Assembly: GCA_964106915.2 (NCBI GenBank)
Contig: OZ066921.1
DNA from: Podarcis gaigeae
Lineage: Eukaryota
Length of the DNA: 64,000 nucleotides
Strand: one strand, 5' to 3'
Shown: piece after piece, positions 41,901-50,900 of the stretch
Position numbering within the stretch: position 1 is the stretch's first letter
How the letters are laid out: every line of letters begins with the position of its first letter
Made by a program: the position numbers

Positions 41901-44900
41901 AATGACCCGAGCCATTCAAATGTTCCAGAGGTTGGCCAAGGCTTTGACAGGAGCACTGGTCATATCAGCCAGAGAATCCCCCAGAGCCGCCTGGAAACTC
42001 ATTGAAGCCATCAGCCTCTCAGGGGAGACCATGCTAATAGGTCCTCCAATTCTGCCGAGGAGGAAAGGTGCTAAGAGCCTAAATCTCAACAGGAAGCAGT
42101 CTGACCACAACAAGGGACTGATGCCAGTATCTCCCTCGTTCAGAACACACTCTTCCTGCCCAGTTGAGAAAACGAGGTCCAGTGATGACCTATTGGGACA
42201 GCCCCATGGTTGTCATGGCAGCCATGAAGTCCTGAGCCAACCCAGAGCCAGTCACCTAGGCAGGGATGTTGAATCCCCCATAACCAGCAGCCAGGCAGTG
42301 GAGGGAAAGTCAGGCTTTCATGTCATTGGTCCAGAGTTCTTTAGGTCTTTAGTCCAACGATTGTAGTTTAAATTCACTTGGAAGACTACAGGTAACACAG
42401 GTAACACCACCACCACCTGGCTGTCCACCTTTGGAATGCAGATCTTATCCTCAGACTCTGTGTTTGCAAGACTGTGCATCTCTGTCTATAGATCTTTACA
42501 AAATTGCCCTTTTGCATCTGAGGTTTTTTGCGATTGCCTTTAGAATTCCATACCTTTTTAACCGTCAAGAAAATCAGTGCATGGGGGGGGGGGGAGAGAG
42601 CACAGAGTGCCCAAAGGACAGTTGAGTAAAAACAAAGATAATTTATTTTTTCTTTTCGCGTTGATGTAATCAGTTCGAAAATATTTGATATTGTGATAAT
42701 TGTGCAATTAAAATTCTCGCTGAACTGCATTACAGCCCTGCTTTGTATGCAGCCAGGCGGGATCGCCAGCCGTCCATTCCATTTACACCACTCTCCCCCT
42801 GGAAATCTGCTTGTAATGCAAGCTGACATTTTTAATTTTCTCTTCATTTCCTAATCCTTGATTAGTAATTGTCTAAGTGATGTTCACACCAGGGCAAAAA
42901 GCATGAGCATTAGTGCAGCAAGCAGCACATCAGTATTATAACCAAGAGGTCATTAGAAAACTAGTGTGGTGTAGTGGTTAGAGTATTGGACTATGACTTG
43001 GGAGTCCAGGGTTTGAATCCCCACACAGCCATGAATCTCACCTTCAGCCAGTCACTCCTTCTTAGCCTAAGATCCCTCAAAGGGTGATGATGAGGATAAA
43101 AATTGAGAGGGAGACAATAATCTCCAGCACCGTGAGTTTCTTGGAGAAAAAGTGGGATGTAGATGCAATAATAAATATAATTCATTTGATCCTCACATGG
43201 GGCAATAAAATTAATTTGCTCCTATATACCATGATCATGAAGGGGTTTTGCCAGGGTGAGGCTGATCCACTGCTGACTCCTGCAATCAAGACAGAGAGAG
43301 AGAGAGTGTTTTTTTCTGGGGGGATGCAGGGGTACGCATGTTGGTTTCTGCTTCCTTCACTGAGCAGCGAAGTGCTTGTCACAAGACAATGTTTACATTC
43401 CACAGTCAAGTGCTGTTGGGTTTTCTCACGGGAAAGGAGACTGGATGTGACGTACACTGGTTTCCTGTTTTTCACTGTTCTTTGCAGTTCAGTGTGATTC
43501 TCTCCGTGTTTTAGAGGAGAGAGGATGCCTTTCTCTGCTCCGGCAGAGGGAAGATGTTTTTCTGTAAATTACCAGCTTTGAAGTGTAAATAAAGTAATAT
43601 AGAGTATGTTGGCACGTACTTTTCATCATTCCGCTGTGCACTGGACACTGCTTATCTCCAACATTTGGATATGGGCCCAGAAAAACGCAGTGTTTTGAGA
43701 ATGGACTCCAGAAGTCGGGCTCCTGGCAAAGGAACAAAGGAGCAAAGAATTGGAGTGCCGGCAAAGGATCGGAATGCAGAGGGCCGGATCGGACGATATC
43801 TCTGCACGTCAAGATGATTTGATGAGGTATGTGCTACAGCTCCGGGCAGCCTGCCAGCTTCTAATTAATGGCTTTATGGCTGGACTTTGAACTTTTATAG
43901 CCGGTTTTGCCGTGGCACAGGCAAAAGGCTAGAAGGATAAATTTTTCCTATGCTGGGGGAAATCAAAAGTAAAGCAGCTGCAGCAGTGTCGCAGCATGAA
44001 TTTAAGACAGCAGAGAGAACTTTCACTTTTGAACTTGCCTTTGGAATGCGGTTTGAAGCAGCTGCAGATAAGCAAAGCAGTTAAGCAGAAAGGCACAGGT
44101 TCACAGGCAGAGGCTGTTTTTGAATTTGCTTTTGGATTGAAGCAGCTGTACACAGACGCAGCATGTATAAAGCAGCCTGATTTAAAGCAGCAAAGATGAC
44201 GCTAAAGGCTAATGCCAAAGTCATGATGGCCCTTCAGGATGCTTGTGGGATTCCTAAGCTCAATAGGAAGAACTATGCGGACTGGGTTCTCTATGCAGAG
44301 GCTATTCTGCGGAAAGAGGGTCTGTTTAAAGTTATTACAGAGACCCCCCCAGCTCCAGTTACAGATGAATGGAAAGCTATGGATTCCAAGGCAAGGGGAA
44401 CTCTTACGTTGATAGTATCCCCAGAAGAGCTCTGTCTGTTGCGTGATAAGACCTCAGCCAGAGAAATTTGGGACGCTTTGAGAGAGGCTCACTTGAGGAC
44501 AGAAGCTGGGTCCACAATGTTTTACTTTAACAAGCTGCATAATATGGCTCTTGCTGAAGGTGGAGATGTGCGTATACATCTGATGGAGATGCAGAATCTG
44601 AGACATGAGCTGCAACAGAGAGGACTCAACTTTCCAGAGGAAGTGTATTCCTTTATGATACTACAATCTTTGGGTTCAGGTTGGGAGTCTGTTGCGACTC
44701 AGATTGCTGTACAGCCAACTGCTCAGCTAACAGTGGACTATGTTACTGCCGTGATATTGAATGAAGCGGATCGCCGGGGTGCTAGCTGCATCAACAAGGG
44801 GGAGACTTCACAGACGTCATCCCATAGTGCAGTGGAACCACCAGATGGCGCCAAAGCTTTGAAGGCAGTGAAATGCTACTCGTGTGGACGTCTAGGCCAT

Positions 44901-47900: not shown

Positions 47901-50900
47901 GAAGCTGAACTGAATGCACTGTCTTATTCACTTAAGGATTGTGAATGGTTGTTACAATTGTGCAAAGACATGAAAATTCCTGTCAAATGTCCAATCCAGG
48001 TTTACCAGGACAACAAAGCATGTTTGGCTTTGCTGAATTCTGAAGGTTGTAAGCAAAGCACGAAGCACTTGCAATTGAAGTTGCAACATGCTAGGGAACG
48101 TATTCAGAAGGGACTCGTAACTGTGTCCTATATGCCAGGTAATGAAATTCCTGCTGATGTATTGTCCAAGATTGTATCAAGGGATCAACACTGTACCTAT
48201 GTGCAGAAGTTGGGTTTGTACTGATATTGTACGAACACGCTGCCCAGTGATGTTCACAGAAAGGGGGAGGATGTTGGTTTCTGCTTCCTTCACTGAGCAG
48301 CGAAGTGCTTGTCACAAGACAATGTTTACATTCCACAGTCAAGTGCTGTTGGGTTTTCTCACGGGAAAGGAGACTGGATGTGACGTACACTGGTTTCCTG
48401 TTTTTCACTGTTCTTTGCAGTTCAGTGTGATTCTCTCCGTGTTTTAGAGGAGAGAGGATGCCTTTCTCTGCTCCGGCAGAGGGAAGATGTTTTTCTGTAA
48501 ATTACCAGCTTTGAAGTGTAAATAAAGTAATATAGAGTATGTTGGCACGTACTTTTCATCATTCCGCTGTGCACTGGACACTGCTTATCTCCATAAACAT
48601 TTTGTGAATCTTTGTATTTTGGTCCATTTACCATATTTATTTTTCCTGATTTGAACTATGAAATGGTGATTTTCTGGGGTCAAAATGAGAGCACCAATAA
48701 ACATTTTTTTTTAGAAGAAAAAGGCACTGTATATAGATATACATAGATATAGATGTATATGAAAGAAAGATTGATCTTCACACAAGATGAAGATCAGCAT
48801 TTTGTCTGAATAATTATTATTATTATTTTATTATTTGCACCCCGCCCATTTAACTGGGTTGCTCCAGGCACTCTGGGCGGGTTACAACATATAAAAAAAC
48901 ACAATAATGCACTACACAGCCAGAGTTTGTCAAACAAGCTGCACATCATCTCACATACAAGTAAAACAAACCATGGTACTTGTACCTCCTGAGCTTGGTT
49001 TGTTTCCCAGCTGTTCTTGTGTTGTCCCTGTAGCCTAATAAGTGTCTGGGGATGCACAGACCATGGTTAAGCAAGCAATAGCACCAAAGCATCATCAAAG
49101 CAATTCATAGTTTGTGAGTCAAGAACAGGCATAGGCAAACTCAGCCCTCCAGATATTTTGGGACTACAACTCCCATCATCCCTAGCTAACAGGACCAGTG
49201 GTCAGGGATGGTGGGAGTTGTAGTCCTAAAACATCTGGAGGGCCAAGTTTGCCTATGCCTGGTCAAGAACTTCACACCAGTTTTTGTTTCCAGAAAAGAA
49301 ACGCTGGTTAGTCTGCTGGATTGGCTTTGGACAGTCAAACAAACCAAACAAACCATGGCTTGGCCTGTGTTATGTTTGAACCAAACCAGTGGGCCACAGT
49401 TAGATTCAGAGAGATGACCTGGCCAAGCATTAGGGTCTTAACCAGCAATGCAATTATTATGCCCTTAAGGTTTAATCTAGCTCATGATTTAATTGCTAAC
49501 ATACTTAATTTATTTTGCTACTTAGATGTTTCTCCCTCCCTGTAACAAGAACACAGGGTGGGTAACAATTCTTTGTTACCTTAGTCTTGCTTCTACCTTA
49601 TGAGTCAAGCAAAACTGAGGTTGCTTTCGCAAGCAATGCATTCTTTTTGAATTCCATGCATCTCCAAGGTAACATCACTGGCCCCCGCTTTGTGATCTTT
49701 CACCAAAGAATATTTTTCACTCTCCTCATCCCCCCTCCCATCTCACTTTAATTTGTGAGAGGTCTCTCCGGCAAGAGGAGAGCCCTGAACTTTCATACTA
49801 AGTAATAACTCATACCAGCTCAGGAACGTGAGTGTGTCGGCTCATTTCAAATTATAAATCCAGATAGGTAGAGATGTGATTTGCATTAATTATTTGTGGG
49901 GGTTTTTGTTTGTTTTTGCATTAGACCCACCGCAACAAAATGATTCAAAAGATCAAATCAGGCATATTAGCGAGAGAATTACATTCGCTGTGTTGATTGC
50001 AAAAACTCCCTAAGAGAGAGTGATGCGTCCAGGATCTCCAAACGAGCTTCCTGGTTCTCCTGCAGCCAAGTCCTGTATCACTCACCTGCTTTGCATGCAA
50101 AAGGTCCAATCCCCAGCTTCTTCAGGAAAGACCCCCCCCCAACCTTAAACTTTGAGAAATTCCTTCTGATCAGGGTAGACAGTACTGAGCTTCATTCTGA
50201 CTCAATATAAGGCAGTTTCCTGTGACTCAAGCTTTGTTTTGTGCACTTTCTAAATTATTTAAATATTTGCAAATTTGCCATATAACTCACGCCTAGGGAA
50301 AGTTCTGATCATATCGTATTCAGTAAGAAGTAATTATTATCCTTTTTAATAAATAAGATGCATTTTAAAACTCAATAAGTAGATGGTAAAGGTCAATTGC
50401 AGTACTTTAAATGAGCTCTAAAAGAGATGAGCAGGACTCTCACACATAAAAAGGAAATAATTCAGTTTATGCCTCTAGTTCAGACTGTTGTTTCTGTATG
50501 GCCTTACTAGTGTATATTTGTTAGCATGCTTTATTTAAAATACGTTTCTACCTCCCTCCATCAAAAAGATGTCAAGGTGGCACACAGCGTACATGTATGA
50601 GCATAAAACAGAACATTAAACCAAATGCCATTTCATTTATTTTCTTTCTAGGATTTATATCCTGCCCCTCCTCACCAGTGGTCTCAAGGCAGGTCACAAC
50701 TGCTGGATTCACAAAGCTGAGCCCACCCCATTCATTTATATAGGATTGCAAGGGGTGTGTCAGTGTTGGGTCAGTTGTCCAAGCTTTAAGTAATTGGATC
50801 ACTTGCCTCTGTGTATCCTTGGATTAACTGTGTGCATTGCCTGCTGTTCTTCGGGCCAGCTATTTGCATACATATCGCACCAATCTGAATATTAAAGCTG

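What the first reader, a model, noticed from the sequence alone, without database searches (positions are those of the whole stretch)
43339..48593. Intact, probably still active Ty1/Copia retrotransposon in a lizard gene intron
Seen: LTRs identical by eye over 322 bp and a 1342-codon ORF with no stop or frameshift that retains all catalytic motifs. Known: intact Copia elements are essentially absent from mammals and birds and patchily distributed in other vertebrates. Inference: a very recent, possibly polymorphic insertion of a live family, and a candidate for horizontal acquisition.
Basis: partly seen in the sequence, partly recalled or inferred. Interest (0 to 1): 0.75.

Follow-up and report, generated by a model that had tools for sequence, protein, structure and literature searches.

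The report
Young complete Copia retrotransposon in lizard
This is a structurally complete, recently inserted Ty1/Copia retrotransposon in a wall-lizard-type genome, which is ordinary because such elements are already known to be common and recently active in lizards and snakes.

Summary
The element is real. It spans 43339-48593 on the + strand. Its two LTRs are identical at 322 of 322 positions. One 1342-codon ORF (44196-48224) carries gag, protease, integrase, RT and RNase H in the Ty1/Copia order.

Three parts of the finding need correction.
- One catalytic motif, in the protease, differs from the canonical pattern by one substitution. Its two closest informative relatives keep the canonical form.
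- There is no target-site duplication, so the locus is not a simple textbook insertion.
- No host exon was detected among 514 ORFs of at least 50 aa outside the element, so "in a gene intron" stays unverified.

"Lizard" is supported. A CR1 LINE fragment in the window is 99% identical to a Podarcis raffonei protein.

Zero LTR differences only bound the age to roughly 1.6-9.3 My.

Horizontal acquisition is not supported. GC content matches the host, CpG is depleted, and no named relative exceeds about 40% identity.

Published work already reports Copia in 23 of 24 squamate genomes (PMC11889832) and 1,962 polymorphic Copia insertions in anoles (PMC7561263).

Verdict: a new member of a known kind, of low interest.

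The parts
43339..43660 (+). 5' LTR (322 bp, TG...CA ends)
   Evidence: Identical at 322 of 322 positions to 48272-48593; sequence read.
43588..43593 (+). AATAAA polyadenylation-type signal inside the LTR (same motif at 48521-48526 in the 3' LTR)
   Evidence: Motif scan. Function is inferred from general knowledge of LTR anatomy.
43661..44195 (+). Untranslated leader. A candidate primer-binding site begins with TGG at 43667, 6 bases after the LTR.
   Evidence: The matching tRNA could not be identified; no tRNA gene lies in the window.
44196..48224 (+). Single gag-pol ORF, 1342 codons plus stop, no internal stop or frameshift
   Evidence: tblastn finds it as one 1342-aa piece and nowhere else in the window.
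44298..44777 (+). gag, Copia-type capsid domain (aa 35-194)
   Evidence: Pfam Retrotran_gag_2, E 6.4e-28. PDB 'Copia VLP protein' 8vvw, E 1e-9 over aa 22-252.
44871..44918 (+). CCHC zinc knuckle (aa 226-241)
   Evidence: Pfam zf-CCHC, 25 bits against a cut-off of 20.8. Motif seen.
45078..45305 (+). Protease region (aa 295-370). Its active-site motif is non-canonical by one amino-acid substitution.
   Evidence: Pfam Pol_BBD, E 2.7e-20. Column counts: 56 of 60 homologues canonical, 4 of 60 like the window. P0001 and P0294 are canonical.
45384..45602 (+). Integrase N-terminal zinc-binding region (aa 397-469)
   Evidence: Pfam gag_pre-integrs, 23.2 bits, below the cut-off of 28.4. The H, H, C, C columns are near-invariant in homologues and present here.
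45645..46031 (+). Integrase catalytic core (aa 484-612) with D, D, E present
   Evidence: Pfam rve, E 2.9e-15. PDB integrase 7z0h, E 1.4e-15. D493 and D555 match 59 of 60 homologues; E591 matches 60 of 60.
46122..46310 (+). SH3-like domain after the integrase core (aa 643-705)
   Evidence: Pfam SH3_retrovirus, E 3.6e-15.
46788..47516 (+). Reverse transcriptase, Copia type (aa 865-1107), Y-V-D-D present
   Evidence: Pfam RVT_2, E 3.4e-69, full-length match 1-243 of 244. Motif seen.
47517..48221 (+). C-terminal region taken as RNase H (aa 1108-1342)
   Evidence: Conserved acidic columns D1195, E1238, D1272, D1321 agree with near-invariant columns of 60 homologues. There is no Pfam or PDB sequence hit. 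The assignment is by position and recalled Copia RNase H motifs.
48260..48271 (+). Polypurine tract directly before the 3' LTR
   Evidence: Sequence read.
48272..48593 (+). 3' LTR (322 bp)

Best explanation
This is one structurally complete copy of a Ty1/Copia (Pseudoviridae-type) LTR retrotransposon sitting in the genome of a lacertid lizard (Podarcis or a close relative).

It would replicate as such elements do. A transcript runs from the 5' LTR to the polyadenylation signal in the 3' LTR. The single gag-pol ORF is translated and the protease cuts the polyprotein. Reverse transcription is primed at the site next to the 5' LTR and at the polypurine tract, which rebuilds two identical LTRs. 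The integrase then inserts the DNA copy. This cycle is inferred from the anatomy and from established knowledge; nothing here shows it happening.

The copy is young, at most a few million years old. It most likely belongs to the Copia lineage that is resident and abundant in squamates, not to a fresh arrival from another phylum.

Whether this particular copy is autonomous is doubtful, because its protease motif is non-canonical. The lack of a target-site duplication says the locus is not a plain primary insertion.
For: - LTRs are identical at 322 of 322 positions, with TG/CA ends.
- A polypurine tract abuts the 3' LTR.
- One open 1342-codon ORF carries Copia-type gag, a CCHC knuckle, protease, integrase, SH3 and RVT_2, with integrase before RT.
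- PDB sequence hits are to a Ty1-type integrase entry and to the Copia VLP capsid.
- Catalytic residues of integrase, RT and RNase H agree with near-invariant columns of 60 homologues.
- The copy departs at 14 of 131 near-invariant columns. At 11 of those 14 its 56% relative P0001 departs as well, so these are lineage traits rather than decay.
- CpG o/e is 0.419 in the element against 0.286 in the rest of the window, above all 193 same-size background windows (range 0.184-0.399). This fits a young insert.
- GC is 0.441 against 0.444, and CpG is still clearly depleted. This fits long residence of the lineage in a methylating vertebrate genome (inference).
- Host: a CR1 fragment is 99% identical to a Podarcis raffonei protein; the next best are Anolis at 77% and Varanus at 70%.
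- Family members exist elsewhere: unnamed fragments at 98%, 89% and 80% identity.
- Literature (passages read): Copia was found in 23 of 24 Squamata genomes, and Squamata hold 66% of 49,920 copies, all of the Mtanga clade (PMC11889832). There are 1,962 polymorphic Copia insertions in 28 anoles (PMC7561263, section 6 and Table 1). Copia is expanding and expressed in sea snakes (PMC8872380).
Against: - There is no target-site duplication at all, although a 5-bp duplication is the rule for Copia integration (recalled).
- The protease motif has one substitution at a near-invariant position.
- The primer-binding site could not be matched to any tRNA.
- RNase H has no Pfam or PDB sequence support.
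- No named vertebrate relative was retrieved. The named hits are arthropods, fungi and plants at 25-48% identity over part or all of the query. Residence in squamates therefore rests on the literature and on composition, not on a tree made here.
- Clade membership (Mtanga) was not tested.
- Copy number in the host genome is unknown.
Confidence: 0.8

Rival explanations
1. The family reached lacertid lizards recently by horizontal transfer (from an arthropod, parasite or other vertebrate). This copy would be one of the first insertions.
For: - The closest full-length protein in the 5.8-billion-protein collection is only 56% identical and unnamed. The next are at most 38% identical.
- Among the best 150 representatives, only two exceed 50% identity.
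- The authors of PMC11889832 raise horizontal transfer as one possible origin of Copia in Sarcopterygii (passage).
Against: - No donor-like sequence was found.
- The element's GC (0.441) equals the host's (0.444). Its CpG o/e (0.419) is depleted as in vertebrate DNA, which a very recent arrival from a weakly methylated genome should not be (inference).
- Related fragments at 80%, 89% and 98% identity show a family with subfamilies, which means some time depth.
- Copia is near-universal in squamates (23 of 24 genomes).
- The protein collections searched mostly lack vertebrate transposon proteins. The absence of close named relatives is therefore weak evidence.
Confidence: 0.07
2. The element is real but the locus is not a primary insertion. 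It is either the product of recombination between two near-identical copies, which leaves mismatched flanks and implies a deletion or rearrangement, or an assembly join made through the repeat.
For: - No shared k-mer of 3 or more exists between the 15 bases on either side.
- With 0 of 322 LTR differences, decay of a 5-bp duplication by point mutation is implausible.
- Recombinant elements without matching duplications are well known in other genomes (recalled).
Against: - Nothing in the window shows a discontinuity. The flanks are unique sequence, there is no N, and GC is similar on both sides.
- A 5.3-kb repeat is easily spanned by long reads if the assembly is of that kind (unknown).
- Integration with a target deletion, or integrase-independent capture of the DNA copy, would also remove the duplication.
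Confidence: 0.45
3. This copy cannot replicate on its own, because its protease motif is altered. If it moves at all, it depends on proteins from sister copies. The change may date from the replication round that made the copy.
For: - One substitution lies in the protease active-site motif. At that position 56 of 60 homologues, P0001 and the 89% relative P0294 keep the canonical residue.
- The motif is intolerant to change in retroviral proteases (recalled).
Against: - 4 of 60 full-length homologues carry the same variant residue, so it may be tolerated.
- Every other checked motif is intact, and the whole ORF is open.
Confidence: 0.35
4. It is an endogenous retrovirus or a Ty3/Gypsy element misread as Copia.
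For: None, beyond the generic LTR-gag-pol layout.
Against: - Integrase lies upstream of RT.
- The RT is RVT_2 and the gag is Retrotran_gag_2.
- Only 47 bases separate the stop codon from the 3' LTR, which leaves no room for env.
Confidence: 0.01

Closest known systems
Mtanga-clade Ty1/Copia elements of squamates (PMC11889832)
   Same: Host group (Lepidosauria), full-length LTR-gag-pol structure, and signs of recent activity. According to the passages read, Mtanga is the only Copia clade found in Lepidosauria.
   Different: Clade membership was not tested here, because no reference Mtanga sequence could be obtained. The nearest named proteins found are from ants and a pseudoscorpion, at about 29-33% identity. 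This copy lacks a target-site duplication.
Polymorphic Copia insertions of the green anole (PMC7561263)
   Same: Copia in a lizard genome with evidence of recent insertion: 1,962 polymorphic insertions in 28 animals (Table 1).
   Different: The host family differs (a lacertid). Polymorphism of this insertion is untested, and its sequence relationship to anole Copia is unknown.
Drosophila copia / yeast Ty1 (type members of Pseudoviridae)
   Same: - Single gag-pol ORF, as in copia.
- Domain order protease-integrase-RT-RNase H.
- The capsid matches the 'Copia VLP protein' 8vvw (E 1e-9).
- The integrase matches entry 7z0h (E 1.4e-15).
   Different: Only distant sequence similarity. The protease motif is non-canonical by one substitution. 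The primer-binding site is not matched to an initiator tRNA. There is no 5-bp duplication.
P0001 (unnamed 1338-aa polyprotein, source 'ena')
   Same: 56% identity over 99% of the length, with the same domain set. It shares 11 of the 14 positions where the window's protein departs from near-invariant Copia columns.
   Different: Its protease motif is canonical. Its organism is unknown and was not traced.

Membership tests
Ty1/Copia LTR retrotransposons (Pseudoviridae) | Two direct long terminal repeats with TG...CA ends | tested here: met
   322 of 322 positions identical, with TG and CA ends.
Ty1/Copia LTR retrotransposons (Pseudoviridae) | pol domain order protease - integrase - RT - RNase H (integrase before RT) | tested here: met
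   Pfam positions: Pol_BBD 295-370, rve 484-584, RVT_2 865-1107. The RNase H region lies C-terminal.
Ty1/Copia LTR retrotransposons (Pseudoviridae) | Copia-type RT (RVT_2) and Copia-type gag | tested here: met
   RVT_2 scores 233.6 bits against a cut-off of 31.6. Retrotran_gag_2 scores 97.8 bits against a cut-off of 27.
Ty1/Copia LTR retrotransposons (Pseudoviridae) | Short (usually 5-bp) target-site duplication flanking the element | tested here: not met
   No shared k-mer of 3-6 within 15 bases on either side. This is a feature of the insertion event, not of the element's coding family.
Ty1/Copia LTR retrotransposons (Pseudoviridae) | Primer-binding site complementary to a tRNA next to the 5' LTR; polypurine tract next to the 3' LTR | tested here: inconclusive
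   The polypurine tract is present. A TGG-led candidate site lies 6 bases after the LTR, but no tRNA was available to match it.
Ty1/Copia LTR retrotransposons (Pseudoviridae) | No env gene | tested here: met
   The single ORF ends 47 bases before the 3' LTR.
Mtanga clade of Copia | Grouping with reference Mtanga elements in an RT/RNase H tree | not testable with these tools
   No reference sequences were reachable. The expectation rests on PMC11889832 passages. That paper's supplements were not seen and may list lacertids.
Autonomous (replication-competent) copy | Open gag-pol with every catalytic motif canonical | tested here: not met
   The ORF is open. The integrase, RT and RNase H motifs are canonical. 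The protease motif has one substitution.
Autonomous (replication-competent) copy | Evidence of current activity (expression, insertion polymorphism, many near-identical copies) | not testable with these tools
   No host genome, reads or transcriptomes were available. Only three unnamed related protein fragments were seen.
Horizontally transferred transposon | Similarity to a distant taxon far above that of host genes, patchy distribution, and a tree that conflicts with host phylogeny | tested here: inconclusive
   No close relative from a named distant taxon was found: named hits are 25-48% identical. Of the best 150 representatives, 148 are 31-39% identical. The collections are poor in vertebrate transposons, and no dS test was possible.

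The most novel reading that the evidence does not exclude
The missing target-site duplication around a copy with identical LTRs marks a very recent recombination between two live Copia copies, and therefore a deletion or rearrangement in this lizard lineage. Alternatively, the divergent lineage formed by this element and P0001 is a separate, recently arrived Copia lineage in lacertids, distinct from the resident squamate clade.
Probability: 0.12. Interest if true: 0.45.

Novelty: new member of a known kind. Interest (0 to 1): 0.2.

Why it matters
It adds one well-preserved Copia copy from a lacertid lizard to a picture that is already published: squamates are the main metazoan reservoir of Copia elements, and lizard populations carry polymorphic Copia insertions.

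It could serve as a marker locus for population work in wall lizards, or as a reference copy for annotating the family.

The missing target-site duplication is the only feature that might point to something more, either a TE-mediated rearrangement or an assembly error.

Tried and rejected
- **Host gene.** I scanned every stop-to-stop ORF outside the element against Pfam, one by one. This covered 282 of 308 ORFs of at least 65 aa (26 inside the element dropped) and 232 of 247 ORFs of 50-64 aa (15 dropped). The only hit was PRC2_EED_ins at 56951-57247, at 22.2 bits against a cut-off of 27. It proved to be a poly-asparagine run from an (AAT)n microsatellite, so it was rejected. ORFs under 50 aa were not scanned.
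- **RNA genes.** Rfam at gathering thresholds gave 0 hits. ARAGORN found 0 tRNAs.
- **Empty site.** Self-BLAST of the 1-kb flanks found no repeat crossing the junction, so the empty site could not be inferred.
- **Other copies.** tblastn and blastn found no other Copia fragment or solo LTR in the window.
- **RNase H.** Neither Pfam nor a profile search of PDB sequences gave a hit. A structure prediction could not be run, so the fold stays unchecked.
- **Closest relatives.** The names or taxa of P0001, P0470, P0241, P0285 and P0294 could not be looked up and stay unknown.
- **CpG-rich spots.** The spots at 12751-13750 and 18251-19000 coincide with CR1 fragments, so they were not taken as promoters.
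- **Literature.** A search for Podarcis + Copia + transposable returned 1 paper, with nothing specific. PMC2774666 passages gave nothing usable.
- **Human sequence.** Nothing in the window was taken for human sequence.
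Full report
**Observation**

The window has no N. A direct repeat pair flanks a long ORF. Reading the ends and comparing them base by base gives two LTRs, 43339-43660 and 48272-48593.

- The LTRs are identical at 322 of 322 positions, start with TG and end with CA.
- One further upstream base also matches, which has a 1 in 4 chance.
- A 30-base LTR probe occurs only at these two places, with 0 expected by chance.
- tblastn and blastn find no other piece of the element in the window.
- The ORF 44196-48224 has 1342 codons plus a stop.
- At the window's composition an open frame of that length has a probability of about 10^-33. The longest other stop-free frame is 254 aa.

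**What it is**

Pfam places the following domains along the protein:

| Domain | Residues |
|---|---|
| Copia-type gag | 35-194 |
| CCHC knuckle | 226-241 |
| Pol beta-barrel (protease) | 295-370 |
| Pre-integrase zinc region (below cut-off) | 397-469 |
| Integrase core | 484-612 |
| SH3-like domain | 643-705 |
| RVT_2 reverse transcriptase (233.6 bits) | 865-1107 |

Integrase before RT is the Ty1/Copia order. PDB sequence hits are an integrase entry (7z0h, E 1.4e-15) and the "Copia VLP protein" (8vvw, E 1e-9).

The last 235 residues have no Pfam or PDB sequence hit. I take them as RNase H for two reasons. They occupy that position, and four acidic residues sit in columns that are near-invariant in 60 homologues. 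The motif patterns I used are recalled. A structure prediction could not be run, so the fold is unchecked.

A polypurine tract (48260-48271) abuts the 3' LTR. AATAAA lies in each LTR (43588-43593 in the 5' LTR). A TGG-led candidate primer-binding site starts 6 bases after the 5' LTR. Its tRNA could not be named, since the window holds no tRNA gene.

**Catalytic motifs**

I aligned the protein with 60 full-length homologues. These were the first 60 of the 120 listed that are 1200-1500 aa long.

- 131 columns are shared by at least 56 of the 60 homologues. The window's protein agrees at 117 of them.
- It departs at 14. The 56% relative P0001 departs at 15. At 11 of the window's 14 positions P0001 departs too, with the same residue at 7.
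- Most departures are therefore traits of a divergent lineage, not decay of this copy.
- The zinc knuckle, the integrase zinc ligands and D, D, E, the RT Y-V-D-D and the RNase H acidic residues are all in place.
- The exception is the protease active-site motif. It has one substitution at a position where 56 of 60 homologues have the canonical residue and 4 of 60 have the window's residue.
- P0001 is canonical there. So is P0294, an unnamed fragment with 119 of 134 identities.

Such motifs tolerate little change in retroviral proteases (recalled), but the four homologues with the same residue leave room for tolerance.

**Insertion site**

The 15 bases before the 5' LTR and the 15 after the 3' LTR share no k-mer of 3 to 6 bases. 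Copia integration normally leaves a 5-bp duplication (recalled). With no LTR difference, loss of that duplication by point mutation is implausible.

The remaining readings are:
- recombination between two near-identical copies;
- an assembly join through the repeat;
- integration with a target deletion, or capture without integrase.

The flanks are unique in the window, so the empty site cannot be inferred here.

One small oddity: the six bases that follow the 5' LTR recur three bases after the 3' LTR. I did not follow this up.

**Age**

Zero differences in 322 positions give a 95% upper bound of K = 0.0093 between the LTRs. That is 1.6 to 9.3 My for assumed rates of 3e-9 to 0.5e-9 per site per year. 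The rates are assumptions; none was looked up for lacertids. "Very recent" is compatible with this but not demonstrated.

CpG o/e is 0.419 in the element against 0.286 in the rest of the window. It exceeds all 193 same-size windows outside the element, which range from 0.184 to 0.399. This fits a young insert.

**Host**

Overall CpG o/e is 0.296, as in methylated vertebrate DNA.

A 145-aa ORF at 18922-19359 (-) is the C-terminal part of a CR1-type LINE protein (the likeness is recalled). Its matches are:

| Source | Identity |
|---|---|
| Podarcis raffonei protein (P0122), over 92% of the query | 99% |
| Anolis carolinensis | 77% |
| Varanus komodoensis | 70% |
| Turtles | 67-72% |
| Birds | 46-70% |

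In total 7904 of 8000 scored candidates passed E 1e-5, and the best 120 were listed.

P0122 maps to two copies in the window: 39183-39707 (+) at 95.4% and 18925-19326 (-) at 98.5%. The window therefore comes from a lacertid, Podarcis or a close relative. "Lizard" is supported.

**Gene intron**

Of 514 stop-to-stop ORFs of at least 50 aa outside the element, one had a sub-threshold Pfam hit. It turned out to be a poly-asparagine run from an (AAT)n repeat. Rfam found nothing.

Short exons and exons without a Pfam domain would be missed. The intron claim is therefore neither supported nor refuted.

**Relatives and horizontal transfer**

- Near-length search: 603 of 8000 scored candidates had E <= 0.001. 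The best is P0001 (unnamed) at 56% identity and 99% coverage. All others are at most 38% identical. The named ones are ants, a pseudoscorpion, a wasp, fungi and plants.
- Shorter proteins: 208 of 8000 had E <= 1e-10. They include three unnamed fragments: 125/128 identities (P0285), 119/134 (P0294) and 227/285 (P0241). The family therefore has other members and subfamilies.
- Exhaustive search of 1.84 billion representatives with residues 400-1342: 224,052 hits at E <= 0.001. Among the best 150, only P0241 (80%) and P0470 (54%) exceed 50% identity. The rest are 31-39% identical.
- The taxa of the unnamed relatives could not be looked up and stay unknown.
- These collections hold few vertebrate transposon proteins, so the gap is weak evidence.
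- The element's GC equals the host's, and its CpG is depleted. This argues against a very recent arrival from a genome without CpG depletion (inference).

I find no positive evidence for horizontal acquisition.

**Literature**

| Paper | What I read | What it says |
|---|---|---|
| PMC4350176 | passages, | Copia is absent from mammals and birds and was probably in the ancestral vertebrate mobilome. |
| PMC11889832 | passages; supplements not seen, may list lacertids | Copia was found in 23 of 24 Squamata genomes. Squamata hold 66% of 49,920 detected copies. Only the Mtanga clade occurs in Lepidosauria, and 90% of Mtanga clusters come from squamates. Horizontal transfer into Sarcopterygii is discussed as a hypothesis. 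|
| PMC7561263 | section 6 with Table 1 and passages, | 1,962 polymorphic Copia insertions among 28 anoles. |
| PMC8872380 | passages, | Copia is expanding and expressed in hydrophiine snakes. |

A search for Podarcis + Copia + transposable returned one paper with nothing specific.

**Verdict**

This is a genuine, complete and young Ty1/Copia copy in a lacertid genome. It is a new member of a well-documented kind. Horizontal transfer is unsupported, and activity and intron location are untested.

Noticed in passing
window 18925-19359 (-), 39124-39707 (+); weaker pieces at 12782-12964 (-), 40376-40450 (-), 7779-7908 (+): These are CR1-type LINE fragments. The two best are 98.5% and 95.4% identical to a Podarcis raffonei protein (P0122), which points to a young CR1 family and identifies the host clade.
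   Followed up: partly
window 49123-49264, 19835-19969, 63672-63808, 32644-32726: A repeat of about 140 bp that matches itself on both strands. Its arms are 61 nt long and 90% complementary, so it looks like a MITE. Four copies are 75-93% alike.
   Followed up: partly
window 33470-33915: A GC-rich stretch (GC 0.64, CpG o/e about 0.65) made of short hairpin-forming and direct repeats. None of its ORFs has a Pfam hit. Its nature is unknown; it could be a young GC-rich repeat or a CpG island.
   Followed up: partly
window c. 42980-43185: Sequence just upstream of the element resembles a tRNA-derived squamate SINE. The likeness is recalled by eye only. No other copy in the window passed E 1e-3.
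   Followed up: no
window 57062-57110 (ORF 56951-57247): An (AAT)n microsatellite translates to poly-asparagine and produced a spurious sub-threshold Pfam hit to the EED insertion domain.
   Followed up: yes
window 43661-43666 and 48597-48602: The six bases that follow the 5' LTR recur three bases after the end of the 3' LTR. This may be chance or a trace of an unusual end structure.
   Followed up: no
window c. 44029-44068 and 44120-44152 (element leader): Two similar segments of about 35-40 bases lie in the untranslated leader, together with several AAGCAGC motifs. This was seen by eye only and was not reported by Tandem Repeats Finder at score 60.
   Followed up: no
P0294 (unnamed, 171 aa) versus window ORF: This 89% relative matches the first dozen residues of the window's protein and then resumes at about residue 171. 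Its source copy therefore seems to have a much shorter gag.
   Followed up: no
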